A DNA stretch of 64,000 nt from an uncultured Bacteriovoracaceae bacterium (GCA_964400685.1 CAYNVT010000002.1:25870-89869); one strand, 5' to 3'; positions 9,126 through 64,000 are shown, counted from the first letter of the stretch. Notes: generated by a model not told the origin, from the letters alone. Translations and numbers: made by a program.

Positions 9126-10013
9126 ATGAAAGATGTTCCTCAAACTGATGAAACACCAGAAAAAGAGATTGCTCAACCACCTGAAAAGCAGCTCGATACA
9201 TATGATAATTTAAGAACAGATGACAATTCAGGACGAACTGAAACCTATGATGATCTGAGAGAAACCGGCGATGGGAAACAGATGAGCACATATGACGATT
9301 TACGGGCAGAGGACGAAGTAACAGAAAAAAAAGACTCAAAATCTGACGCTGACTCCTTAAAAATTAATAGGCATGAAATAGTTGAACAGCGAAGAATAGA
9401 TCAGGCTGCTGAGGACATCAAGCAAAATGAATGGATGAATCCCCAAAAATGGAAAACATTGAATGTCGACGATCAGAGACAAGCTCTCGAAGACTGTGGA
9501 AAATCCCTTGGAAAAGCATATGACCACCCCGAACCGCCAATCATAACCAAAGATTTGAACAATCCAAATTTACAAGGCACTTATGGAGATGGTTACTCAT
9601 ATCGTCCGGAAAGTCCTTATGCTGACAAGAATGGAGTTACTGGCGCTGACTATGGCATAGAAATAAATGAAAATAGCAGGAAGGATCTTTTTGGTGAAGA
9701 TCCACGGAAGGCTGTTGAGACCTACGGACATGAGTTCAGGCATTCATATCAGCATGAACAGGCATTACGTTACGAAAAAGGGTTCGGAGTTGATGATCCT
9801 GAAAAGGCTAAAGAATGGTCGGAAAATTTTAAGGACAATAACTATAAAAATGCGCCGGATGCTGAATTAGCAAAAAGTGATCCTGAAAAATATTATAAGA
9901 AGTATGAGGAATACAGAAATCAGCCGGTGGAAAGCGATGCTCGAGAATTTGGAAGAAAATTATCTTCCAGTGTTTATTCGGATTACGAAAACATTGAGAA
10001 GGAAGAAAAGTGA
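9126..10013 (+). CDS. acidic hypothetical protein with tandem TYDDLR-type repeats (295 aa)
   Basis: RBS GAGGGAAtaggtATG. Three degenerate repeats: TYDNLRTDDNSGR, TETYDDLRETGDG, MSTYDDLRAEDEV. Confidence 0.55.
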   Translation: MKDVPQTDETPEKEIAQPPEKQLDTYDNLRTDDNSGRTETYDDLRETGDGKQMSTYDDLRAEDEVTEKKDSKSDADSLKINRHEIVEQRRIDQAAEDIKQNEWMNPQKWKTLNVDDQRQALEDCGKSLGKAYDHPEPPIITKDLNNPNLQGTYGDGYSYRPESPYADKNGVTGADYGIEINENSRKDLFGEDPRKAVETYGHEFRHSYQHEQALRYEKGFGVDDPEKAKEWSENFKDNNYKNAPDAELAKSDPEKYYKKYEEYRNQPVESDAREFGRKLSSSVYSDYENIEKEEK

Positions 10014-53287: not shown

Positions 53288-53515
53288 TGTCGATATCTGC
53301 ATTGCATATCGACATACTATGCAGATATTATAAGGTTCTCTAAAAATATAGTTCACTGTGACTTGAAAATTCATTTCGTAAACCACATGCTATAACCGCA
53401 AGGGATATTTATCTAAATTTATCAAAATGAATTTGTAATTTTGTATCCTTTTCTGCCGACGCTATGCAAAACATAATAATATTACACGACGCCATGCACA
53501 GTGTTCTTTTTCAAC
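53288..53515 (+). repeat. intergenic repeat family, copy A (long form)
   Basis: Shares the ATCGACATACTATGCAGATATTA ... TTTGTATCC ... CCGACGCTATGC ... CACGACGCCATGCAC ... CTTTTTCAAC backbone with copies B-D. Begins with a 9-bp inverted repeat TGTCGATAT-N9-ATATCGACA. Confidence 0.7.
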
Positions 53516-53541
53516 TAGACGCATTATAGATCAAATATACC

Positions 53542-54816
53542 TTGATTATTAGTATTACAGATGCTTATTATCAAGGTGTGAAATACAACAGTCGCATAGC
53601 CGAAGAAGACCTCAAATCAGCTTTCAAGGTTATGAGTGTCGTTATGGTTTCAGGCGCCAGACAGGTCGGTAAAACAACCATGATCAGGCATGTTTTTCCT
53701 GATATTAAAAGAGTTGAATTCAGTCCACATGGAGATAATCATGGCGCGAGAACAGATCCGCATCTTTTTTTAAACAGTTATCAAACGCCATTGATACTCG
53801 ATGAAGTCCAATATGTTCCTGAACTTCTATCTGCAATCAAGATGCGTCTTGAAAATATAAATGAGCCTGGCCAATATATTCTAACAGGATCGCAGCATCT
53901 TGCAATACTTAAAGCCGTACAGGAAAGCCTTGCCGGAAGAGTTCTGAATATCAACATGTATCCTCTTTCTTTTTCAGAGATTAAAGATATGGGAAAAAGC
54001 GCCTGCTGGCTTGGTAACTATCTTGAAAAACCATCATCGCTTTTATCTTTAAAATCTTTCAATGAAAATGAAAGCCTTGCTCATTGTATCTGGAAGGGTG
54101 GACTTCCCAAACTCCTTGAACTTTCCGATAAGATGGTTTTCAAATATTTGCATTCATATGTTGAAACATATTTATTACACGATGTTTTTACCCTTCTGAA
54201 TATAAGAAACAGAGATTCTTTTATGCTGTTTCTTGGACTTTGCGCAGCCTTGACTGCTCAGGAAATCAATTATTCCGAGTTTGGGAGGGCGTTAGGCATA
54301 AACCAGAAGACAGCCCAGAACTGGCTGAGTGTGCTAAGAAACACTTTCCAATGGCATGAGATTCTCCCTTATCACGGCAATACAATAAAACGTTTGAGTG
54401 AGAAGCCCAAAGGTCATTTTGGCGACACAGGACTTGCCTGCTATTTTCAGAGGATAACATCTCCACAGGCCTTGATTGTAAGCCCGTTGTTTGGCTCTCT
54501 TTTTGAAACATGGGCGTTCAATGAAATTCTCAGACAGACAACAAGCCTTGCCGCCATGCCAAATATCTGGCATTGGCGAACATCTGCCGGCGCCGAGGTT
54601 GACGTTATTCTTGAAATTGACGGAAAGTTTTATCCTATCGAGATGAAAAGCCGTACATCTCTGAAAAAGAAAGATGCAAGCGGCATCAATGCCTTTAGAG
54701 AAACATATGACAAGAATCTGAATATTATGCCTGGGCTCATTATATATGCCGGTGTTGAATGTTATTGGCTTACTGATAATATAATAGCAGTACCGTGGAA
54801 TCTGATTGGAAGATGA
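53542..54816 (+). CDS. AAA_14/DUF4143-family ATPase (424 aa)
   Basis: P-loop MVSGARQVGKTTMI. Family-typical architecture. Start codon uncertain. Confidence 0.7.
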   Translation: MIISITDAYYQGVKYNSRIAEEDLKSAFKVMSVVMVSGARQVGKTTMIRHVFPDIKRVEFSPHGDNHGARTDPHLFLNSYQTPLILDEVQYVPELLSAIKMRLENINEPGQYILTGSQHLAILKAVQESLAGRVLNINMYPLSFSEIKDMGKSACWLGNYLEKPSSLLSLKSFNENESLAHCIWKGGLPKLLELSDKMVFKYLHSYVETYLLHDVFTLLNIRNRDSFMLFLGLCAALTAQEINYSEFGRALGINQKTAQNWLSVLRNTFQWHEILPYHGNTIKRLSEKPKGHFGDTGLACYFQRITSPQALIVSPLFGSLFETWAFNEILRQTTSLAAMPNIWHWRTSAGAEVDVILEIDGKFYPIEMKSRTSLKKKDASGINAFRETYDKNLNIMPGLIIYAGVECYWLTDNIIAVPWNLIGR

Positions 54817-54893
54817 TAAAGCAATCAATTTATTGACAATAAGCTCAGAGAAGCAGTTTTAAGCTGTTTTCAAAATAATATTACAATTAGAAG

Positions 54894-55030
54894 TTTTGTA
54901 TCCTATTTGTATCCTTTTCTACCGACACTATGCGTAACATATTGATATTACACGGCGCCATGCACACTATGCACAGTGTTCTTTTTCAACCGTCTGCTTA
55001 AAATTGCGTAATTAAATTAATGGGTTAATT
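54894..55030 (+). repeat. intergenic repeat family, copy B
   Basis: TTTGTATCCTATTTGTATCC ... ACCGACACTATGCGTAAC ... CTTTTTCAACCG ... AATTAATGGGTTA. About 85-90% identical to copies C and D by eye. Confidence 0.7.
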
Positions 55031-55147
55031 TACTTCCCTATAAATACTACTTTAGATAATATTTAGAATTTCCCTACTTCGAAAATTTATAGATAATGGG
55101 CAATTACAATTTGATAGAAATGGGGGGGGGAGATTATCAAAGGATCA

Positions 55148-56311
55148 CTAATCACGATCATCATAGAACTTTAAACAGTTCTCATTGAGTGGATCAATTC
55201 TGTCTGCATATTTTTGCATCCAGTTTATCCAGTTTTCTATTTTTGTATTCGGAGGAATTTCACCAAAACGATTTATACAAGCTTGCTTGTATAAAGATAA
55301 ATACTCTCTTATCTCTTTGCTTTTTTTGAACAGGTCCAACTGATCATTTAGAAATTCAACCTTTTTCGAATAGACATATTCTCTGTGTCTTTGCTCTTCC
55401 CATAATCTTCTTTGTTCAGCCCATTTCTTTTCTTGTTCTTCCTTTTTAATTCGCCATTGTTTCTTGGCTAGAGCTGCTTTATTGAGACCTATAATAAAAT
55501 TATTGAGAAGATCCTCAACACGCTGGTTTTTTCCATCTTCCCATTTTTTCCTGGTTTTATCGAACTCTGAATCAACGATTTGCAAGCAGAGTCTTCCTGA
55601 TGGCTCATAATAATATTCATGATTATACAAAAAGTGATTTTCTCTTTCTCTTTTTTCTTGAAGCGTTGGTTTTTTCTCAAACCTTGAATAGGTCTCAATG
55701 ATTGAAAACCTGATATCTTCATCCAGTACTTTTACACTATTTTTTATCTCATCATCTGCTATTTTGACTATATAACCTCTCGATTCGAAAGCCTTCAACA
55801 ACGTATCAATGATAGTTAATGAACGAGATATGTTCTTTGGCGAAACATAAAGATCAAGACATTTTTTTGTTTGTGGTCTCACTAACCCTCTAAAATCGGG
55901 TTTCTGTTTTTGAAGATCTTTCTCTGTTTTAATAACCAATGGATGAGGTGAGGCTAGGGTGGCTGAGACCACGATTGAATTTTCATCATTTTTCTCAAAT
56001 TCTATGATTGCTTTTATTTCATCATTCTCTGATACATTTGTTGATCTTTCATTATTTTCATTTCTGGTAAAAGTATGAGATATAATATTTGTATCCTTCG
56101 GTAATTCTGGTAATGGGATCTGCTTTACGGAATAGCCATATTTCTTTCTTTGCCAGTATCCATTTGCAGGAACAGGGACATGAAGTTTCTTACAAACTTT
56201 TTTCAACCCATTGTCAGATATTCCATATTCTTTCGCAAGTCGAATCATTGGGGTTGTCCAAACTTTATTGTACAACTCATCACGGGTAATTATAGTGGTT
56301 TTATTAACCAA
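55148..56311 (-). CDS. hypothetical protein (387 aa), K/E-rich central region
   Basis: Long minus-strand ORF. Its N-terminus (VWTTPMIRLAKEYGISDNGLKKVCKKLHVPVPANGYW) has no family I can name. Confidence 0.55.
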   Translation of the reverse strand: MVNKTTIITRDELYNKVWTTPMIRLAKEYGISDNGLKKVCKKLHVPVPANGYWQRKKYGYSVKQIPLPELPKDTNIISHTFTRNENNERSTNVSENDEIKAIIEFEKNDENSIVVSATLASPHPLVIKTEKDLQKQKPDFRGLVRPQTKKCLDLYVSPKNISRSLTIIDTLLKAFESRGYIVKIADDEIKNSVKVLDEDIRFSIIETYSRFEKKPTLQEKRERENHFLYNHEYYYEPSGRLCLQIVDSEFDKTRKKWEDGKNQRVEDLLNNFIIGLNKAALAKKQWRIKKEEQEKKWAEQRRLWEEQRHREYVYSKKVEFLNDQLDLFKKSKEIREYLSLYKQACINRFGEIPPNTKIENWINWMQKYADRIDPLNENCLKFYDDRD

Positions 56312-56505
56312 ATCAGCCTTCCTTAATGCAGTTATTTGAGTGATTTATTTCTTTTAAAAACTAGCACATTTGATAACGTTTAAAAAGTATGTGCTCTTAA
56401 AATTATCGGTAAATATAATACCGGTCATGTCAACTTAAGTTATTCCTTTGTTTATTGACTATCTCCAGATAGTATGGAATAATCGTACTTACTGGAGATA
56501 ATTAA

Positions 56506-57114
56506 GTGAACAAGAGCGACCCGGTTTATCTTGATTACATATACCTGATGGATAAGCTTAAGGATTATTCATCACCGAAATCAAAACTTACAACTATGAT
56601 AAAATCAGGGGAAATCATTAAGGTAAAGAGAGGATTGTACCTTCCCGGCGATAGAAAATCTTATTCTCTCAAAACCCTGGCAAACAAAATTTACGGTCCC
56701 TCCTATATTTCATTTGAATATGCGCTATCCTATTACAATCTCATACCTGAAAGAACGGATGTGATAACATCCGCCAGTCTTGAAAAAAGCAAGAATAAGA
56801 TATTTGAAACACCGGTAGCAACCTTTGTATACAGAAGCGTTAGTAAGGATGTTTATTCTCTTGGGGTTGTTAGAAAGGAAGAAGACGGGAACCCTTTCTT
56901 AATCGCAACAAAGGAAAAGGCCTTATGTGATTTTTTATCAAAGATGAAGACAGAGGTATCAAATAAAAATATCAGGTCTCTTCTTATAGATGATCTCAGG
57001 ATTGATGAAGAAGAACTCCTCAAGCTTAATATTGATGATATTGCCGGGCTTGTTCCTCTCTACAGGAAAAAAAGTCTGACAGTTCTTCTGAATTTCTTAA
57101 AGGAAGGTTTCTAA
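56506..57114 (+). CDS. AbiEi-like antitoxin/transcriptional regulator (type IV TA)
   Basis: Immediately upstream of, and translationally coupled (TAATG) to, an AbiEii-type nucleotidyltransferase. Size and position fit AbiEi. Confidence 0.5.
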   Translation: MNKSDPVYLDYIYLMDKLKDYSSPKSKLTTMIKSGEIIKVKRGLYLPGDRKSYSLKTLANKIYGPSYISFEYALSYYNLIPERTDVITSASLEKSKNKIFETPVATFVYRSVSKDVYSLGVVRKEEDGNPFLIATKEKALCDFLSKMKTEVSNKNIRSLLIDDLRIDEEELLKLNIDDIAGLVPLYRKKSLTVLLNFLKEGF

Positions 57115-57986
57115 TGCATAACGCTGTTGCCGACATGCTGGATAAATACAACTGCAAGACTATCGATGATTACAGGAATGCCTTAAAAGAAATCATTCAG
57201 GAGATTGCGCTATTGGGACTTTTCAGGGGTAATTTTTTCGATTCCGCAGCGTTTTATGGTGGTACTGCATTACGGATTTTTTATGGCCTTGACAGATTTT
57301 CTGAAGACATTGATTTTTCACTTATAAGTAAATCTGAAGGTTTTAATATCAAGCCATTCTGCGAGGTTATAAAGAATGAACTCGATGCATATGGATTCGA
57401 TGTTGAGGTCTCGCAAAAGAAGAAAACAGCAGACTCAAACATTGAATCCGCCTTTATTAAAGGCGGAACCTTGATACATCTGCTGAAAGTTGGTGCCATT
57501 AATCCACCGATAAAGGGCATAACTGATAATGAACTCCTAAAAATAAAGATAGAAGTTGATACCGATCCGCCAGAAGGAGCGACATATGAAGTGAAGTATC
57601 TGCTCAACCCTATCCCATTTCATGTCAGGCTTTTTTCTCCATCTTCTCTTTTTGCCGGTAAAATTCATGCACTCTTGTTCAGGAACTGGAGGAGCGGCAG
57701 GATTAAAGGTCGCGATCTGTACGATTATGTCTGGTATCTTTCAAAATCGATTCCGGTAAATATCCATCATCTTGAAGGACGCATGAGGCAGACGGATCAT
57801 TTAAAAGATGGAGCAAGTCTAAATATTGAAAAACTAAAGAATCTCCTATTGAAAAGGTTTTCTTCTATTAACTATGAACAGGCTAAACAGGATGTTCTTC
57901 CTTTCATCAAAAAACCTGATGCATTGGGGATTTGGTCAGTAGATTTCTTCAACTCAATCACAAAGGACAAACTTATTTCTGAATAA
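57114..57986 (+). CDS. AbiEii/AbiGii-family nucleotidyltransferase toxin (DUF1814)
   Basis: FYGGTALRIFYGLDRFSEDIDFSLI, the GGTALR ... DIDF NTase signature of AbiEii. Confidence 0.65.
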   Translation: MHNAVADMLDKYNCKTIDDYRNALKEIIQEIALLGLFRGNFFDSAAFYGGTALRIFYGLDRFSEDIDFSLISKSEGFNIKPFCEVIKNELDAYGFDVEVSQKKKTADSNIESAFIKGGTLIHLLKVGAINPPIKGITDNELLKIKIEVDTDPPEGATYEVKYLLNPIPFHVRLFSPSSLFAGKIHALLFRNWRSGRIKGRDLYDYVWYLSKSIPVNIHHLEGRMRQTDHLKDGASLNIEKLKNLLLKRFSSINYEQAKQDVLPFIKKPDALGIWSVDFFNSITKDKLISE

Positions 57987-57991
57987 TGAAA

Positions 57992-58161
57992 TTTGTATCC
58001 TATTTGTATCCTTTTCTGCCGACACTATGCGTAACATATTGATATTACACGACGCCATGCACACTATGCACAGCGTTCTTTTTCAACCGGCCGCTTGAAA
58101 TTGCGTAATTATATTAATGGGTTATGTTACATTTTTGTCGATACGTCTGTTGAATGGGGTT
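57992..58161 (+). repeat. intergenic repeat family, copy C
   Basis: Near-identical to copy D from TTTGTATCCTATTTGTATCC through GAATGGGGTT, then diverges. Confidence 0.7.
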
Positions 58162-58485
58162 AAACAGGTCTATGGTGTGTATTACGCAATCTCAATTCTG
58201 GAAACAATATCCTGAAAGGAATCCTTCGACCAAATTGAGGGAGTCAAAGCGTCTTTGATGAAAGTTGATGCTTCGATTCGTGTTTTGTTAATGTCGAAAG
58301 TCTCGATAGCTTCATGAAAATGTCTGAAAAAAAGATCCCTTGTTAGTTCATGTGCCCTTTTCCGTTCTCTCCAGGCTGAGAATCTTTCCGATTGCCTTGT
58401 GTTATTCTTTTTCTTATATATTTATTGCTTTGATATTTAACCTGTTAGTTGTATTATTAGCCTTGTTTTTTGGGAGGTTTTATTC

Positions 58486-59793
58486 ATGAAAAGACTTATT
58501 GATAAGCATCTTATCAACTGGAAAACCGGAAAGAAAAGAAAATCACTTCTGTTGAGGGGCGCTCGTCAAGTTGGTAAAACCTATTCCATAAGGGAACTTG
58601 GAAAATCCTTTGAGCATTATTGCGAGGTCAATTTTGAAGAACACCCTGCGGCCTCCGAGATGTTCAAGCAGAGTCGCGATCCAGATGAATTGATGAAAAA
58701 GTTATCTGTCTATTTTGAAAAGCCGATAGTTGAGGGCAAAACGCTTCTTTTCCTAGACGAAATCCAGGCTTGCCCGGATGCGCTCAGAAGTCTTCGATTC
58801 TTCAATGAAAAGAATCCGGGGCTTCATGTCGCTGCTGCAGGTTCTCTTCTGGAATTCGCCATTGAGGAAATCCCCTCTTTTGGAGTTGGAAGAATTGAAT
58901 CTATATTCATGTATCCGCTTTCATTCTTTGAATACCTCGAAGCTGCTGGTCATAAAATTATGCTGGAAGCAATAATGGAGGCTTCTTATGATAAACCTTT
59001 GAATGACCAGACACACAGAAAGTTAATGGAGGAGCTCAGGTTGTTCATCTTAACCGGCGGTATGCCGGAAGCCGTTGAGGTTTTTATCGAGGCTTCAGAT
59101 TTCAGCCAGTCAAAAAAAGTGCTGGACGCCATTTTGATCTCCATCATTGATGACTTTGCAAAATACAGAAAAAGAACCCCTTTGGCCCGGCTTGTTGAGG
59201 TTTTCAAATCTATTGGCATCCAGGCTGGCCATAAATTCAAATACAGCAATGTCTCGGAAGATAAATCGATTGTTATTAAAGATGCGCTGTTAATGCTTAT
59301 CAAGGCGGGGCTTGCCTATCAGGTCATACACACATCCGCAGGCGGGGTTCCACTTGGAGCACAAATAGATCCAGCCAAATTTAAGGTAATCATGTTTGAT
59401 ACGGGACTGCAATTAAAACAGTTGGGGTTGAAGATGTCAGATTTAATATCTGAAGATATGAACACCTTTGTTAACAAGGGTGGTCTGGCTGAACAATTTG
59501 TAGGAACGGAACTGGTAAAAGCGATATCAATATCGTCACATCCGGAACTCTATTATTGGCATCGGGAATCAAAGTCGAGCAATGCCGAAGTGGATTATGT
59601 GATAGAAAATAATAATGGCATAATCCCTGTAGAGGTAAAGAGCGGAACAAAAGGTTCAATGCAAAGCATGAGGTTGTTCCTTAATGAACGCAAATTAAGC
59701 CGTGGCTTCAGGATATCTTCAGAAGGCTTTGGTCGCTATGAAAACATTATAGTGGTTCCCTTATACGCTGCCGGAAGGCTTTATGAATTGTAG
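58486..59793 (+). CDS. AAA_14/DUF4143-family ATPase (435 aa)
   Basis: P-loop LRGARQVGKTYSI. Walker B-like LLFLDEIQ. Distant paralog of the 53542 gene. Confidence 0.7.
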   Translation: MKRLIDKHLINWKTGKKRKSLLLRGARQVGKTYSIRELGKSFEHYCEVNFEEHPAASEMFKQSRDPDELMKKLSVYFEKPIVEGKTLLFLDEIQACPDALRSLRFFNEKNPGLHVAAAGSLLEFAIEEIPSFGVGRIESIFMYPLSFFEYLEAAGHKIMLEAIMEASYDKPLNDQTHRKLMEELRLFILTGGMPEAVEVFIEASDFSQSKKVLDAILISIIDDFAKYRKRTPLARLVEVFKSIGIQAGHKFKYSNVSEDKSIVIKDALLMLIKAGLAYQVIHTSAGGVPLGAQIDPAKFKVIMFDTGLQLKQLGLKMSDLISEDMNTFVNKGGLAEQFVGTELVKAISISSHPELYYWHRESKSSNAEVDYVIENNNGIIPVEVKSGTKGSMQSMRLFLNERKLSRGFRISSEGFGRYENIIVVPLYAAGRLYEL

Positions 59794-59916
59794 TCTCGGA
59801 CTATAGCGTAAGGTGCAAAGCATTTGTTTGTTTGGGTAATGAGTTTTGGTAATCACACTTAAATTAAAAAAATCTCCTCATAATATATTGTTTTCTGCAT
59901 AATATATCGGCTGGTT

Positions 59917-60222
59917 ATCGACATACTATGCAGATATTACAAGATGCCTCTATGAATACATTTCATGACAATTTAAAAAAGTTCACTTAATTAATCCACT
60001 ATTTATAACCGCAAGAAATAGTTAGCTAAATTGATCAAAATGAATTTGTAATTTTGTATCCTATTTGTATCCTTTTCTGCCGACGCTATGCGTAACACAT
60101 TGATATTACACGACGCCATGCACACTATGCACAGCGCTCTTTTTCAACCGGCCGCTTGAAATTGCGTAATTATATTAATGGGTTATGTTACATTTTTGTC
60201 GATACGTCTGTTGAATGGGGTT
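59917..60222 (+). repeat. intergenic repeat family, copy D (long form), contiguous with the tRNA-like 3' fragment
   Basis: Contains both the long 5' extension shared with copy A and the 3' extension shared with copy C. Confidence 0.7.
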
Positions 60223-60259
60223 CAGGGGGTCGAAGGTTCAAATCCTTTCGTCCCGACCA
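60222..60259 (+). other. tRNA-like 3' fragment (variable region + T-arm + acceptor 3' strand + CCA) without a matching 5' half
   Basis: T-stem GAAGG, loop TTCAAAT, T-stem CCTTT, then CGTCCCG-A-CCA. No complementary CGGGRYG 5' strand or anticodon arm within 100 nt upstream. Confidence 0.45.
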
Positions 60260-60368
60260 ATATAATAAAATAAACAACTAATCCGGGGTTGTTTTCTGAC
60301 AGATATCATTCCGATTTTCCGGCTATTCCTGAAGCGCTCTCCATGCTGCCTGTAATGTTTTTTTAATA

Positions 60369-63194
60369 TCAGAATGTGTATCCTATCGAGAAATGGAAGG
60401 CCCCGGGATTTTCATCTTCTCTGGGGTCTATTTTGAGCCCGTATAACAGACTTACCGGGCCGATAGGCGTGATATAACTAAGACCGAGCCCGACTGATGA
60501 GCGGAAACTGTCGGTCCCGGCATCCGTGACGGGTTTCTGAATTGAACCTGTATCATAGAAGAGAGTGGCTTCCAGGCTGCTGATCAGTTCTATTCGGGCC
60601 TCCAGGCTGGCATTTATGGAAAGCCGTCCACCGACCGGATTATCCTGGGAATCATAGCGGAGCATGTTCTCTGCATAGCCGCGCACCGAGAAGGTCCCTC
60701 CGAGATAAAACAGCTGGTCAACCGGGATCGAGCTTGAAGTGTCATAAGGATCGATATAGCCTACGCCCCCCATCCCGGCGAAAGTGACCCGCGACAATGG
60801 CCGCCAGTATCCACGCATAAGAAGCTTGTATTTAAAGAAATTGTCCAGAGAGTTCTCCAGACCCCTTGAAACATCAACGTATATAGATGAATAGATACCC
60901 TTCGAAGGCCGGACAAAAGAGTCCCGCGTATCATATTCCACTCCTGGTGTTGTTACCAGAATACTGCGCGGCAGATATGTATCATCGGTTACGATGGAGG
61001 AGTCTTGAGGGAACTGTTCACGTCGTTCGTACCTGAATCCCAGGCTTGCCGTTACATGCTCAGGGGTAAATTTGCGCTGGAAGTTTATCGAGCCTGCAAG
61101 GTCTTTGACTCCGAATGTCTGATTGAAGTCCTCCTTGCGTTCGTATGCTACTGAATAGGTTGTCGAGATATCGGTTCCGAATAAATTCCGCTGGTTAAGG
61201 GCGACCTCGCCTTTGTACCCGACCTGGCTTATCTCGCCGCTAACCCAGGTGTTATAGTTCATTCCGAAAAGGTTTCTGTCACCCGCCCGGGCATTTCCAT
61301 AGAATCCGTTGTCGCTCCTGTATCCCACGCCGCCCTGGATATAATACGGCGGTGTTTCCTCAACATCAACTAAAAGGGGTATACACTCTTCCTTATCCTT
61401 CAGGCCGGGGGTTTTGAACTGGACGGATTTAAATATCCCCATATCGCGGATGTTCTTCTGACCATTAAGAATCGCGGCAAGGGAGAACTTATCGCCGGGC
61501 TTGATCTTGAGTTCACGGTCAAGTATCTTCCTGCGGGTTTTCAGATTGCCTTTGTAGTAGATATTCCCCATGCTGACAAGAGGTCCTTCGTTGACTTCAT
61601 AGCTTACATCGGCTCCTGAACGGTCAGGTCTGAATCCGGCACTGCTTATTACTGATACATAAGGATGACCCGAAGCGGAAATCAGGTTGGCAAGCGAGAC
61701 CTCGTCTTTTTTCATCAGCATATCGCTGAAAGGCTGTCCCGCCTTGAGCCGAAGGGATTCCAGGGCTTTTTCCCGGGACATGACCGTTAGGCCCGTAATC
61801 GTAAGAGTCTTCACCAGGGACTCGACGCCCTCGTCGATGTTCATTGTGATATCAACTGAGGTTTTATCCTTACTCCAGACGATATCGGGGGTTATTTTCA
61901 CATCCTGATAGCCCGCCTGCAAATAGCGGTTCTTAATGGCTGAAATATCCATGTCCAGCAGCTCCGGTACATAGTCGTCTTCTTTTGAGAGGGCCCTGGT
62001 TCCTGTCTTTATTGTCTTTTTAAGTGCCTCCTCATCAAAGGCCGAATTTCCTGTGAACCGCATCGAGTTTACCGTTGTGTGCGGGCCTTCCGTAATGGCT
62101 AGTTCGATGCGGCGCGTGGTTAAGTCATTGTCTGTTGTCTTTTCATCGTGAATTTGCACTTCGGTGAAAAGATAGCCTGCCATGCGGTAGCGCTTCTTGA
62201 TGTTTTCGATGCTTTTGCGCAGGCCGCGGTCCCTTCGGTTGCCTTCCTTGAATATGACAAGGTCCTTCTTGAGGGTTGAGGACCAGAATCGATGATTGCC
62301 GGAAAAGGAGACTTCATAGCGCGGGCCTTCCTTGATGTTCAGGTCTATAGAAACAAGCGCCTTGCCGGGGTCCCTGCTTATGGTGGGATGTATCTCGCAT
62401 TCAGGGTATCGTCTCTTGTAGTAGAGCTTTGTAAGATTTTTAACATCCCGGTCGAATTTCTGTTCCTTGAAGCGCCTCGATTCGAGAATCAGGAAGGATG
62501 TCCGCCAGACATTCATGTGCATTCTGATTGCTGAAGTGGATATGCCACTGTTGCCGTCGATAGTGAAATCATCCAGGACATAATAGTCTCCTGGTTGTAT
62601 CTGCACGTTGATAAGGGATGTTCCGGCTGCGATATCACGGGCTTCCTCAATTTTCACTCTCGGCTGAATATAGCCCTCTAGGGTGTAAAGATCACCGAGA
62701 CGGGCCTCATGTTCGGTAAGAGACCCGGGAAGAAGCGTGTCGCCGGGGTAGATGCTCATGGCTTTCAGTACTTCGCTCTTGAACAGCGGATACTCGCCCC
62801 TGACCCTGATATCCCTGATCACACGTGCAGGCTTAAGGACAAAGGTGACCTCAATGCCATTATCAAACGCCTTGACCAATGGCATTATTTCCTCGAAGTT
62901 GCCGCTCAGGCTGAGGGACTCGACAGATTCTTTATATTTACCGGCAGTGAATTGTTCATTCTGATGAAGGACGATGAGATCGCGCGCCATCTGCTCTACC
63001 AAAGGGGTACACCAGGGGCATTCCGTGATTATGATGTCCACCCGGCGCATTACAGACCCTTCAAAGGTGGCGTAATTGAAGGCATCTTCCGTTAGAACAG
63101 GCGCATCCTCACCCGAGGCATTGGCGGCGGACACGATAATTAACAGCATGGCAGGCAGGAGCAGCTTTAAAATTATGGTTTTAACGGAATTCAT
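60369..63194 (-). CDS. bamA: outer membrane protein assembly factor BamA (Omp85 family; POTRA repeats + beta-barrel)
   Basis: Signal peptide. 941 aa. POTRA-like repeats. C-terminal barrel ending FHFSIGYTF. Confidence 0.75.
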   Translation of the reverse strand: MNSVKTIILKLLLPAMLLIIVSAANASGEDAPVLTEDAFNYATFEGSVMRRVDIIITECPWCTPLVEQMARDLIVLHQNEQFTAGKYKESVESLSLSGNFEEIMPLVKAFDNGIEVTFVLKPARVIRDIRVRGEYPLFKSEVLKAMSIYPGDTLLPGSLTEHEARLGDLYTLEGYIQPRVKIEEARDIAAGTSLINVQIQPGDYYVLDDFTIDGNSGISTSAIRMHMNVWRTSFLILESRRFKEQKFDRDVKNLTKLYYKRRYPECEIHPTISRDPGKALVSIDLNIKEGPRYEVSFSGNHRFWSSTLKKDLVIFKEGNRRDRGLRKSIENIKKRYRMAGYLFTEVQIHDEKTTDNDLTTRRIELAITEGPHTTVNSMRFTGNSAFDEEALKKTIKTGTRALSKEDDYVPELLDMDISAIKNRYLQAGYQDVKITPDIVWSKDKTSVDITMNIDEGVESLVKTLTITGLTVMSREKALESLRLKAGQPFSDMLMKKDEVSLANLISASGHPYVSVISSAGFRPDRSGADVSYEVNEGPLVSMGNIYYKGNLKTRRKILDRELKIKPGDKFSLAAILNGQKNIRDMGIFKSVQFKTPGLKDKEECIPLLVDVEETPPYYIQGGVGYRSDNGFYGNARAGDRNLFGMNYNTWVSGEISQVGYKGEVALNQRNLFGTDISTTYSVAYERKEDFNQTFGVKDLAGSINFQRKFTPEHVTASLGFRYERREQFPQDSSIVTDDTYLPRSILVTTPGVEYDTRDSFVRPSKGIYSSIYVDVSRGLENSLDNFFKYKLLMRGYWRPLSRVTFAGMGGVGYIDPYDTSSSIPVDQLFYLGGTFSVRGYAENMLRYDSQDNPVGGRLSINASLEARIELISSLEATLFYDTGSIQKPVTDAGTDSFRSSVGLGLSYITPIGPVSLLYGLKIDPREDENPGAFHFSIGYTF

Positions 63195-64000
63195 GTTTGA
63201 CCTGGATTTCAGCCCCGTAATTGCCGCTCGTGCCTGGGTAGCCGTTCACCATAAGATTGTCGAACAGCTTATAGGAAACAATCCCCCACTGGGATGTCAC
63301 GTTGTTCCGGGTTTCCATTTCATAGGAGATGCTGAAGCGTTTTGATATATCCTTGCCGACTGTGAACTTCATATCGCTGCTGGTTTTAGATCCAGTCGGG
63401 CTCGAGTATTCCAGCTTGAGGGTATCAATGCTAGCGGCTTTCTTGATCTCCGAGCCATATGTGCTTGCCAGCAGTTCTGCAGCCATGAGGGAAGGCGAGG
63501 CCTTTGCTGTAGAATTCTTTTGTGTGAGCTCGCTGAATGTTTTTCCCATGACAAGCAGGGAGACTATATCAGACTGGACCTCAGTCGGTTGAGAGCTCAG
63601 TTGCATTTTCAGGTTGTCGAGCGGGCCTTCGAGCGAGAGGTAAATGGTCCAGTCGCGTACCTTGGTCTGGCTTATAATATCCAGGTTCGCTTCGGTCCTG
63701 TTGGGATTCAGGAAATCGATGACGCCTCGTGTGACGGTGAAGGTGTTGTTCTGAAAGATAACCGTCCCATTTATTACGCTTATTCTGCCGTTTACCAAAG
63801 GATCGCCCACAGTGCCGGTTATTTCCAGGTCCGGGTTGAGTTCGATCAAAGCAACGTTGTTGTCTATTTTCACTTCACCGCGGCGCTTCATTCTAACGTC
63901 GAGGGTCATGTCTTTAATGAATGGCGGCAGGGCCTCCGTACGCCTGATGGAATGTTTGCGCTTCGGGAGGATTCCTTCGACAGCGCCGGTAAGGAGATTG
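63181..64000 (-). CDS. TamB-like translocation/assembly module protein, C-terminal (DUF490) part. The gene continues beyond the window end.
   Basis: ORF is open to the window edge with no stop upstream of the listed Met. C-terminal beta-rich DUF490-like tail ...GNYGAEIQVKHEFR. Overlaps bamA start by 14 nt. Confidence 0.55.
   Translation of the reverse strand, partial: NLLTGAVEGILPKRKHSIRRTEALPPFIKDMTLDVRMKRRGEVKIDNNVALIELNPDLEITGTVGDPLVNGRISVINGTVIFQNNTFTVTRGVIDFLNPNRTEANLDIISQTKVRDWTIYLSLEGPLDNLKMQLSSQPTEVQSDIVSLLVMGKTFSELTQKNSTAKASPSLMAAELLASTYGSEIKKAASIDTLKLEYSSPTGSKTSSDMKFTVGKDISKRFSISYEMETRNNVTSQWGIVSYKLFDNLMVNGYPGTSGNYGAEIQVKHEFR

What the first reader, a model, noticed from the sequence alone, without database searches (positions are those of the whole stretch)
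53288..60259. Direct-repeat family bracketing each DUF4143 ATPase gene, better conserved than the genes themselves
Four copies (A 53288-53515, B 54894-55030, C 57992-58161, D 59917-60222) share a backbone at an estimated 85-90% identity. The two ATPase genes they bracket are only distant paralogs, so the repeats are not passive products of gene duplication. Copies A and D share a long 5' extension; copies C and D share a 3' extension. Each copy contains two direct CGACGCYATGC boxes spaced 21 nt apart. An in-frame stop-free stretch (ADAMRNTLILHDAMHTMHSALFQPAA-stop) is kept open in all copies despite substitutions and a 9-nt in-frame indel, but it has no start codon. Possibilities are tandem att-site scars from serial island integration, MITE-like elements, protein-binding iteron-like sites, or a structured ncRNA.
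Basis: seen in the sequence. Interest (0 to 1): 0.65.

Follow-up and report, generated by a model that had tools for sequence, protein, structure and literature searches.

The report
Attachment-site arms of stacked tRNA-Pro islets
The four repeats are the conserved end-pieces (attachment-site arms) of small defence-gene islands that inserted one after another into a proline tRNA gene; this is a clean but ordinary example of how bacterial genomes pile up mobile DNA at tRNA genes.

Summary
There are four direct copies: A 53293-53515, B 54885-55033, C 57980-58161 and D 59904-60222. They are 87-97% identical, while the two DUF4143 proteins share only 23% identity.

Relatives carry the intact tRNA at this same spot next to bamA.

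Copy C ends exactly on the 11-nt anticodon-loop segment TGAATGGGGTT. One relative metagenome has the AbiE islet joined directly to the tRNA fragment, without window 58162-60222, and has an intact tRNA-Pro at the islet's other end.

So the repeats are the island-side arm of the attachment site of a family of small islets with no integrase: DUF4143/PDC-S01, then a 387-aa unknown gene plus AbiEi/AbiEii, then DUF4143/PDC-S01. They are stacked in tandem by site-specific recombination in the anticodon loop.

No integrase lies in the window. A and B have lost the crossover segment.

The RNA-structure, small-ORF, MITE and integron readings all fail their tests. This is a new member of a known kind (tandem accretion, CIME-like). 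Interest is low to moderate.

The parts
53293..53515 (+). Copy A: long-form attachment-site arm at the right end of the DNA to its left ('islet 0'). It is truncated at its 3' end just after TTCAAC, so it lacks the last ~95 nt of the arm and the crossover segment.
53542..54816 (+). Cargo of islet 1: a DUF4143/AAA_14 ATPase (PADLOC candidate defence family PDC-S01). The likely true start is the GTG at 53578.
   Evidence: A homolog at >=90% identity sits in a different (HipA/NERD-UvrD) context elsewhere.
54885..55033 (+). Copy B: short-form arm at the right end of islet 1. It is truncated 31 nt before the crossover segment and fused to the decayed left end of islet 2.
   Evidence: The junction was assembled independently, 100% identical, in Logan SRR12489248.
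55148..56311 (-). Islet 2 gene of unknown function (387 aa). Its family lies at island edges next to tRNA genes. It is not a recognisable recombinase.
56506..57986 (+). Islet 2 cargo: AbiEi antitoxin (56506-57114) and AbiEii nucleotidyltransferase toxin (57114-57986).
57980..58161 (+). Copy C: short-form arm of islet 2, complete through the 11-nt crossover segment TGAATGGGGTT (58151-58161). Together with the start of islet 3 it forms the dyad CTGTTGAA-TGGGG-TTAAACAG (58146-58166).
58162..59903 (+). Body of islet 3: a non-coding left side (58162-58485), the DUF4143/PDC-S01 ATPase gene (58486-59793), and a spacer. The whole islet (58162-60222, 2061 bp) is absent from relative L011.
59904..60211 (+). 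Copy D: long-form arm of islet 3. It contains TTTGTATCCT twice (60053, 60064), the boxes CGACGCTATGC (60081) and CGACGCCATGC (60111), and the ATGCACAC/ATGCACAG duplication.
60212..60259 (+). Displaced 3' 48 nt of tRNA-Pro(GGG), covering positions 29-77 (end of the anticodon stem, anticodon loop, T arm, acceptor strand, CCA). The first 11 nt (60212-60222) are the crossover segment shared with copy C.
   Evidence: ARAGORN finds no intact tRNA here.
60369..63194 (-). bamA-like Omp85 gene: the conserved chromosomal flank of the tRNA-Pro site. GC is 0.50, against 0.38 for everything to the left.

Best explanation
The repeat is the island-side arm of the attachment site of a family of small integrative islets. 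These islets target the anticodon loop of the tRNA-Pro(GGG) gene that lies next to bamA in this Desulfomonilia lineage.

Each islet ends on its right with the arm (about 170 nt minimal, about 310 nt in the long form). The arm is followed by the 11-nt crossover segment TGAATGGGGTT, which is the last 3 nt of the anticodon stem, the 7-nt loop, and 1 more nt.

Serial insertion of new islets at this segment created a tandem array. Every internal junction is 'arm + crossover segment + start of the next islet'. The last junction (D) is 'arm + crossover segment + remaining 3' half of the tRNA'.

The arm stays similar while the cargo differs (two unrelated DUF4143/PDC-S01 ATPases, and an AbiE toxin-antitoxin pair). 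The likely reason is that it is the common cis-acting part: probably binding sites for a tyrosine integrase and its accessory proteins, namely the phased 11-nt boxes 30 nt apart and the TTTGTATCCT pair 11 nt apart. Copies also exchange sequence by homologous recombination.

The islets carry no integrase. They were either moved by an integrase encoded elsewhere or are deletion remnants of autonomous elements.

Junctions A and B later lost the crossover segment by deletion, which fused those islets in place.

Shown: the tRNA fragment, the intact tRNA in relatives, the exact boundaries, and the presence/absence polymorphism. Inferred: the integrase class, the binding role of the boxes, and supply of the integrase in trans.
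For: 1. Window 60212-60259 is identical to the 3' 48 nt of the tRNA-Pro(GGG) found intact at the same place downstream of bamA in relative L003. The window has no intact tRNA and no 5' half.

2. L010 has a bamA flank 99.8% identical to the window from 60212 on. There, the bases left of TGAATGGGG are TAGCGCACC, which is the tRNA body and not the arm.

3. In JGI metagenome 3300047491, L011 reads AbiEii 3' end, arm, TGAATGGGGTT, tRNA 3' half, bamA. This is the window minus 58162-60222. L012 reads core flank, intact tRNA-Pro, 387-aa gene, AbiEi, AbiEii. That is a classical attL/attR pair with a 48-nt direct repeat around a ~3.4-kb islet with no integrase. L011 and L012 are two non-overlapping contigs of one metagenome, so placing them in one genome is an inference.

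4. C and D are 97% identical up to ...GGGGTT and diverge immediately after it. D's identity to the tRNA starts exactly at T29. The shared block is therefore the anticodon loop, the commonest crossover sublocation (2083 of 3919 Islander islands; PMC4383910).

5. Junction C carries a dyad, CTGTTGAA-TGGGG-TTAAACAG. Five of the six positions contributed by islet 3 are complementary to the arm side (read). This is what a recombinase core site looks like.

6. Cargo is defence-type and unrelated between islets.

7. GC is 0.35-0.40 in the islets against 0.50 in the bamA flank.

8. The arm is mosaic. C versus the L011 copy differs at 0/119 distal and 5/51 proximal positions. C versus D differs at 3/119 distal and 0/51 proximal positions. 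This shows recombination between arms.
Against: - No integrase (PF00589 or any recombinase) was found in the 64-kb window. The only candidate by position, the 387-aa protein, gives a confident model with no recombinase-like fold match.
- The intact tRNA-Pro/attL of this genome is not in the window, and the left flank is not syntenic with relatives.
- Copies A and B lack the crossover segment, so their origin by the same mechanism is inferred, not shown.
- The left (P') sides of the islets share no similarity and carry no boxes, which is unusual for lambda-type attP sites.
- Loss or gain of islet 3 could also be produced by RecA recombination between the 181-nt arms.
- Only five copies from two lineages exist, so conservation cannot be separated statistically from recent common descent.
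Confidence: 0.78

Rival explanations
1. The islets are dead remnants, and the arms have no present function. Full-size islands with integrases integrated in tandem, and deletions then removed the integrase and left ends. The arms look conserved only because they are recent copies kept alike by gene conversion or homologous recombination. That recombination is also what now adds or removes cassettes.
For: - No integrase in any islet.
- A and B have clearly suffered deletions that removed the crossover segment.
- Mosaic arms have recombination breakpoints inside them.
- Divergence from the relative is uneven. dS is 0.02 for the AbiEii 3' end, against 0.24-0.26 for the rest of the AbiE genes and 0.23-0.33 for the core.
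- Decay to CIMEs followed by accretion is the standard route (PMC5704250).
Against: - The same 3.4-kb islet without an integrase is intact with both att sites in the relative.
- Islet 3 is only 2 kb and has precise boundaries and its own dyad core at the junction.
- Several phased direct repeats inside the arm are invariant in all five copies.
Confidence: 0.3
2. The repeat encodes a structured small RNA, or a small peptide (the stop-free frame ...LILHDAMHTMHSALFQPAA*), associated with the neighbouring defence genes. A tmRNA-like gene, with a tag frame lacking a start codon followed by a tRNA-like 3' end, is one form of this idea.
For: - The frame is open in all five copies and ends in AA-stop.
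- A tRNA-like T arm, acceptor strand and CCA follow copy D.
- There is a weak Rfam tmRNA hit on 60213-60259 (7.7 bits, E 8.6).
Against: - ARAGORN finds no tmRNA or tRNA, and there is no Rfam family at gathering score.
- No 5' acceptor strand is present anywhere in the window.
- The tRNA-like end is fully explained as the 3' half of tRNA-Pro.
- Fold z-scores are -0.72, -0.18 and -1.43.
- The open frame is not longer than in 58% of shuffles. Changes are 19 non-synonymous against 4 synonymous, with no third-position bias.
- The consensus scan found no promoter-like site inside the arm.
Confidence: 0.03
3. The repeats are integron-type attC sites, MITE-like transposable elements, or products of plain segmental duplication of a DUF4143 gene with its flanks.
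For: The layout resembles a cassette array: small single-gene units, each followed by a conserved repeat, with the newest next to a fixed site.
Against: - There are no terminal inverted repeats or target-site duplications, and all copies are in direct orientation.
- There is no attC-like hairpin.
- No IntI or other recombinase is in the window.
- Boundaries fall in a tRNA anticodon loop.
- The cargo genes are unrelated (23% identity), and one unit has no DUF4143 gene at all. This excludes segmental duplication.
Confidence: 0.02

Closest known systems
Tandem genomic islands in tRNA/tmRNA genes, anticodon-centred attP class (Islander; Williams and co-workers, PMC4383910)
   Same: - Integration splits a tRNA gene and displaces a 3' fragment that marks the island end.
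- The crossover is in the anticodon loop.
- Several islands are stacked at one tDNA.
- In the relative, the islet restores the full 48-nt 3' half of the tRNA.
   Different: - Islander islands by definition carry their own tyrosine integrase, and these islets have none.
- The repeated sequence here is mainly the island-side arm (170-310 nt), not the tRNA fragment. Internal junctions keep only 11 nt of tRNA, or none.
- The islets are only 1.5-3.4 kb.
CIMEs (cis-mobilizable elements) and site-specific accretion with ICEs/IMEs (Pavlovic 2004; Bellanger 2011; reviewed in PMC5704250)
   Same: - Elements flanked by att sites that have lost integration and transfer genes.
- A new element integrates into the att site at the end of a resident one, giving tandem arrays.
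   Different: - Those cases are in Firmicutes with a known partner ICE and its integrase. Here no partner element or integrase is identified.
- Even the most recent arrival (islet 3) lacks an integrase.
- Two of the four junctions have lost the crossover segment.
Tycheposon arrays and remnants in Prochlorococcus islands (bioRxiv 10.1101/2020.12.28.424599)
   Same: - Successive integrations at the same tRNA push older elements inward.
- Elements are separated by partial tRNA copies.
- Degenerate remnants and defence/adaptive cargo are present.
   Different: - Tycheposons carry their own recombinases and replication modules.
- No sequence or gene relationship to them was found here.
- The junction repeat here is an element arm rather than a partial tRNA.
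Integron gene-cassette arrays (works-like comparison only)
   Same: Small promoter-poor or single-gene units, each ending in a conserved recombination sequence. They accumulate next to a fixed site through a recombinase supplied in trans.
   Different: - No IntI, no attI, and no attC hairpin architecture.
- The target is a tRNA anticodon loop.
- Trans-mobilisation is not demonstrated.
Islands integrated at ssrA in Dehalococcoides (PMC3146451; only its title and abstract start were read)
   Same: According to its title and abstract start, a horizontally acquired cargo island is integrated site-specifically at one small-RNA gene, by a mechanism the authors call common in that genus.
   Different: - The target gene there is tmRNA.
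- No sequence comparison with that system was made here.
- I did not check whether its islands are stacked in tandem or carry integrases.

Membership tests
tRNA-targeting genomic island (Islander definition) | Displaced tDNA fragment in the same orientation as an intact copy of the same tDNA at the other end | tested here: inconclusive
   The fragment is present (60212-60259). The intact tRNA-Pro is not in the 64-kb window. The full pair is present in the relative (L012 intact tRNA, L011 fragment).
tRNA-targeting genomic island (Islander definition) | Crossover at a canonical sublocation of the tRNA gene (anticodon loop or T-loop/junction) | tested here: met
   The block shared between junction C, junction D and the tRNA is T29-T39, which is the anticodon loop plus 4 flanking nt.
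tRNA-targeting genomic island (Islander definition) | Tyrosine-recombinase integrase gene inside the island | tested here: not met
   No PF00589 or other recombinase domain was found in any ORF of the islets or of the window. The 387-aa protein has no recombinase-like fold match.
CIME (cis-mobilizable element) | Flanked by attL- and attR-type sites | tested here: met
   Islet 3 is bounded by TGAATGGGGTT at 58151-58161 and 60212-60222. Islet 2 in the relative is bounded by a 48-nt repeat. This is not met for islets 1 and 2 in the window, where A and B lack the segment.
CIME (cis-mobilizable element) | Lacks its own integration and transfer genes | tested here: met
   The only genes are DUF4143 ATPases, AbiEi/AbiEii and a 387-aa unknown.
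CIME (cis-mobilizable element) | Derived from, and mobilised in cis or trans by, a related ICE/IME with a cognate integrase | not testable with these tools
   No related full-length element was found in the viral, GTDB-representative, JGI, phage or plasmid collections.
Integron cassette (attC) | Imperfect-palindrome attC with R''/L''-L'/R' cores, and an adjacent intI/attI | tested here: not met
   There is no significant hairpin (z -0.18 and -1.43), and no integrase in the window.
MITE | Terminal inverted repeats and target-site duplication, with dispersed copies | tested here: not met
   Only direct copies exist, all at islet junctions, with none elsewhere in the window.
tmRNA / tRNA gene | Complete acceptor stem (5' and 3' strands), T arm, and detection by ARAGORN/Rfam | tested here: not met
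   ARAGORN finds 0 genes. The Rfam tmRNA hit is 7.7 bits against a gathering score of 47. The 5' strand CGGGACG... is absent.

The most novel reading that the evidence does not exclude
The islets are not decay products. They are a genuine class of minimal cassettes without an integrase: one defence gene, a ~170-nt arm and an 11-nt core. A trans-acting tyrosine integrase repeatedly captures them at the attR side of a tRNA-Pro gene. This would be a functional analogue of an integron, built on a tRNA-targeting integrase, that assembles a defence-gene array.
Probability: 0.2. Interest if true: 0.55.

Novelty: new member of a known kind. Interest (0 to 1): 0.3.

Why it matters
It resolves an odd-looking 'repeat better conserved than its genes' into a readable history of a defence-gene hotspot. 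At least three small islets (PDC-S01/DUF4143, AbiE, PDC-S01/DUF4143) were added one after another at tRNA-Pro(GGG), and close relatives show the empty and one-islet states.

It also gives precise boundaries. These could be used to look for the cognate integrase and to test whether defence cassettes of 2-3 kb without an integrase can be moved in trans. That bears on how defence islands are assembled in uncultivated Desulfobacterota.

In itself, though, it is an instance of tandem accretion at a tRNA gene, which is well documented.

Tried and rejected
1. tmRNA hypothesis. It was prompted by a start-less frame ending in AA-stop followed by a T arm, acceptor strand and CCA. It was rejected for three reasons: ARAGORN and Rfam were negative, there is no 5' acceptor strand, and the 3' end equals tRNA-Pro of relatives.

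2. Structured RNA. Fold z-scores are not significant on either strand. Covariation could not be tested with five near-identical copies.

3. Coding frame. Rejected by the shuffle and substitution tests.

4. Search for more copies. All of the following gave nothing or chance hits:
   - exact-pattern scans of viral contigs, GTDB representative genomes and JGI metagenome contigs (four chance hits in coding DNA);
   - blastn against phages and plasmids;
   - a protein-anchored scan of genomes with the 387-aa protein.
   The only extra copy came from protein-context look-ups (L011).

5. Search for an integrase. Pfam, PHROG-style and PADLOC scans of the window ORFs and of the 79-codon start-less frame beside junction C were all negative. 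One PHROGs call failed on coordinates.

7. Looking for the left end of the array. The window has no tRNA-Pro 5' half, no other tRNA fragment, and no synteny with the Transpeptidase flank seen in relatives. The source contig (91,772 nt) could not be fetched.


Full report
**Observation**

The region contains four direct copies of one non-coding sequence. Repeat finding, MAFFT and pairwise local alignment place them as follows:
- A at 53293-53515
- B at 54885-55033
- C at 57980-58161
- D at 59904-60222

C and D are 97% identical over 181 nt, B and C 93.5% over 139 nt, B and D 90% over 149 nt, and A and D 87% over about 200 aligned nt. A and D share a roughly 150-nt 5' extension.

The 3' ends form a staircase. 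A stops after TTCAAC, B stops 31 nt before the end of C, C stops at ...TGAATGGGGTT, and D continues.

A profile of the copies finds nothing else in the 64-kb window. The two DUF4143 ATPases between the copies are only 23% identical.

Two corrections are needed. The two CGACRCYATGC boxes are 30 nt apart start-to-start. Also, the copies sit at every junction of a four-part array rather than specifically around DUF4143 genes, because B and C bracket a 387-aa unknown gene plus AbiEi/AbiEii.

**The tRNA fragment**

The decisive feature lies at the 3' end of copy D. The sequence 60212-60259 (TGAATGGGGTTCAGGGGGTCGAAGGTTCAAATCCTTTCGTCCCGACCA) has a T arm, a 7-nt acceptor strand, a discriminator base and CCA. 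Yet ARAGORN finds no tRNA or tmRNA anywhere in the window, and Rfam gives only a 7.7-bit tmRNA echo on those 47 nt.

I first considered a divergent tmRNA, because the start-less frame ending in ...PAA-stop sits upstream of this tRNA-like end. That idea fails. No complementary 5' acceptor strand exists, and the true origin of the 3' end is clear from relatives.

**Evidence from relatives**

The flanking Omp85/BamA-like protein (60369-63194, minus strand) has homologs at 81-100% identity in Desulfomonilia assemblies.

- L003 (GCA_036567785.1). In this MAG, the gene is followed by an intact tRNA-Pro(GGG) whose last 48 nt are identical to window 60212-60259.
- L010. This Logan contig is 99.8% identical to the window from position 60212 rightwards. 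To the left it continues with TAGCGCACC, which is the body of the tRNA and not the repeat.
- L011. This contig from JGI metagenome 3300047491 (bamA side 90% identical) reads: AbiEii 3' end, a fifth copy of the repeat, TGAATGGGGTT, the tRNA 3' half, bamA. It is the window with 58162-60222 missing.
- L012. This second contig of the same metagenome carries the conserved flank seen in L003 (transpeptidase, PAS/GAF kinase and so on). It then carries an intact tRNA-Pro(GGG), then about 230 nt, then the 387-aa gene, AbiEi and the start of AbiEii.

Taken together, L011 and L012 suggest that the relative has the textbook arrangement: intact tRNA, islet, 48-nt displaced tRNA fragment. The two contigs do not overlap, so assigning them to one genome is an inference. 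The islet there is about 3.4 kb and has no integrase.

**What the repeat is**

It is the island-side arm of the attachment site.
- Copy D is arm + crossover segment + rest of the tRNA.
- Copy C is arm + crossover segment + beginning of the next islet.

The block common to C, D and the tRNA is exactly T29-T39 of the tRNA: three nt of anticodon stem, the seven-nt loop, and one more nt. The anticodon loop is the commonest crossover position for tyrosine integrases that target tRNA genes (2083 of 3919 islands in Islander; PMC4383910).

At junction C the arm side and the islet-3 side form a dyad, CTGTTGAA-TGGGG-TTAAACAG. Five of the six positions contributed by islet 3 are complementary to the arm side (read; rough chance about 0.005-0.01). 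This is the appearance of a recombinase core site and not of tRNA-derived sequence.

Islet 3 (58162-60222, 2061 bp, one DUF4143/PDC-S01 gene) is thus a discrete insertion, or excision, bounded by 11-nt direct repeats.

**Junctions A and B**

Both lack the crossover segment. Comparison with L012 shows that the window has lost three things at B: the last 31 nt of the arm, the tRNA-like block, and part of the islet-2 left end. Only weak gapped similarity remains before the 387-aa gene.

I read A and B as older junctions fused by deletion. This is an inference. The B junction is not an assembly artefact, because a Logan contig from another run is 100% identical across it.

**Extent of the accessory block**

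The whole 60 kb to the left of the tRNA fragment has GC 0.38, against 0.50 for the bamA side and 0.45-0.50 for the core flanks of relatives. It is also not syntenic with those flanks. The intact tRNA-Pro/attL of this genome, if it exists, therefore lies beyond the window.

**Why the arm is conserved**

Three things contribute.

1. It is the only part common to elements with unrelated cargo. It contains phased direct repeats that are invariant, or nearly so, in all five copies: TTTGTATCCT twice 11 nt apart (once in A), two CGACRCYATGC boxes 30 nt apart, and an ATGCACAC/ATGCACAG duplication. This is the usual architecture of arm-type binding sites for integrase and accessory proteins. That role is inferred, not shown.

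2. The copies are recent relatives.

3. They recombine with each other.
   - Copy C is identical to the relative's copy in its distal 119 nt but differs at 5 of 51 proximal positions. It is identical to D proximally but differs at 3 distal positions.
   - Synonymous divergence from the relative is 0.02 for the last 88 codons of AbiEii. It is 0.24-0.26 for the rest of the AbiE genes and 0.23-0.33 for tamB/bamA.

**Alternatives tested**

- Structured RNA. Minimum free energies are ordinary (z = -0.72 for D, -0.18 and -1.43 for the two strands of C), and no Rfam family reaches threshold.
- Coding frame. The longest open run in the arm (42 codons) is matched or exceeded in 58% of shuffles. Differences between copies are 19 non-synonymous against 4 synonymous codons, summed over four non-independent pairwise comparisons with copy D, and show no third-position bias.
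- Promoter. The consensus scan finds none inside the arm.
- MITE, attC or segmental duplication. There are no inverted termini, no hairpin and no dispersed copies, and the cargo is unrelated.

**What is missing**

The recombinase is missing. No ORF in the window has a recombinase domain.

The 387-aa protein occupies the position next to attL where an integrase is usually found. Its small family (29 proteins) sits at island edges in other genomes: next to tRNA-Arg and a PF00589 integrase in GCA_018433775.1, and at the border of a restriction/Thoeris-like island elsewhere. However, its confident AF2 model (pLDDT 88) matches no solved fold, and the gene is frameshifted in the relative. It is not a recognisable recombinase.

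The arm was not found in any DNA collection available, so no full-length parent element is known. Whether the islets are moved in trans or are deletion remnants therefore stays open. I put the remnant reading at about 0.3, and the 'genuine integrase-less cassette system' reading at about 0.2.

**Comparison with known systems**

The anatomy matches tandem islands at tDNAs (PMC4383910). It especially matches the accretion of CIMEs, which are elements that keep their att sites but have lost integration and transfer genes, with newcomers integrating into the attR site (PMC5704250). It also resembles the stacked tycheposons and remnants separated by partial tRNAs in Prochlorococcus islands (bioRxiv 10.1101/2020.12.28.424599).

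It fails the Islander membership criterion of an island-borne integrase. It meets the two structural CIME criteria for islet 3, and for islet 2 of the relative.

It works like an integron array in outline but shares none of its defining parts.

**Verdict**

The 'serial att-site' option is right, and the RNA, peptide, MITE and attC options are wrong. This is a new member of a known kind, of modest interest. Its main value is as a well-delimited case for asking how small defence cassettes without integrases are added at tRNA hotspots.

Noticed in passing
window 55148-56311 (-); L012:1309-2404; L013:8001-9173; L015:4033-5193: The 387-aa protein has no Pfam or PADLOC match and belongs to a small family (~29 proteins) with a conserved N-terminal motif (LTRxELYxxVWxxP...GISDxGLxKxCKxxxIPxPxxGYWxR). 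Its members sit at island edges: beside tRNA-Pro, beside tRNA-Arg(CCT) plus a tyrosine integrase, and at the border of a type I RM/SIR2-STALD/ThsB-TIR island. The AF2 model is confident (pLDDT 88, long coiled coil at 265-349) but has no PDB fold match.
   Followed up: partly
window 1-60222 versus 60260-64000: The entire 60 kb left of the tRNA fragment has GC 0.38, against 0.50 for the bamA/tamB side. It is rich in conflict-type genes: HerA/DUF87, CHAT-TPR, cREC_REC, a ClpB-like AAA+ next to ClpP, VWA plus a tubulin-like protein, and a DnaB_C-like ATPase. It may all be accessory DNA accumulated at tRNA-Pro. The intact tRNA is not in the window.
   Followed up: partly
window 57721-58161 versus L011; 55140-57555 versus L012: Divergence from the JGI relative is mosaic. 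dS is 0.02 for the last 88 codons of AbiEii (distal arm 0/119 differences) and 0.04 for the N-terminus of the 387-aa gene. It is 0.24-0.26 for AbiEi and the AbiEii N-terminus, and 0.23-0.33 for tamB/bamA. The islet ends look recently exchanged between lineages.
   Followed up: partly
window 58182-58418 (-): A 79-codon stop-free frame without a start codon ends 20 nt from the crossover segment of junction C (...AHELTRDLFFRHFHEAIETFDINKTRIEASTFIKDALTPSIWSKDSFQDIVSRIEIA*). It is possibly the C-terminal remnant of a lost islet gene. It has no Pfam match.
   Followed up: partly
window 53293-53330 and 59895-59931: Both long-form arms begin with a hairpin built on the same right arm (TATGCAGATAT) but with differently placed left arms. 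In A it is ATATCTGCAT...ATGCAGATAT with a 16-nt loop. In D it is TCTGCATA...TATGCAGA with a 25-nt loop. The role is unknown.
   Followed up: no
window 55125-55133: A run of nine G lies in the non-coding left end of islet 2. It is identical in the independent Logan contig L018. It could be a slippage-prone tract.
   Followed up: no
DUF4143-1 (window 53542-54816) and ENA contig of P0145: A homolog of the first DUF4143 ATPase at >=90% identity lies in a different neighbourhood elsewhere (HipA_C on one side, NERD/UvrD helicase on the other). The cargo gene therefore moves between defence contexts independently of the arm.
   Followed up: no
L013:7949-7977 and 9396-9424: In GCA_018433775.1 the homolog of the 387-aa gene is flanked by a repeated GAGTACC-N5-GAGTACCTTTT motif, between tRNA-Arg(CCT) and a tyrosine integrase gene. 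These may be arm-type sites of that unrelated island.
   Followed up: no
L001:12781-15789: In GCA_964513375.1 an intimin-like/beta-helix gene (871 aa) is inserted between bamA and the 3' end of the intact tRNA-Pro. The intergenic space on the other side of this tRNA is therefore also variable.
   Followed up: no
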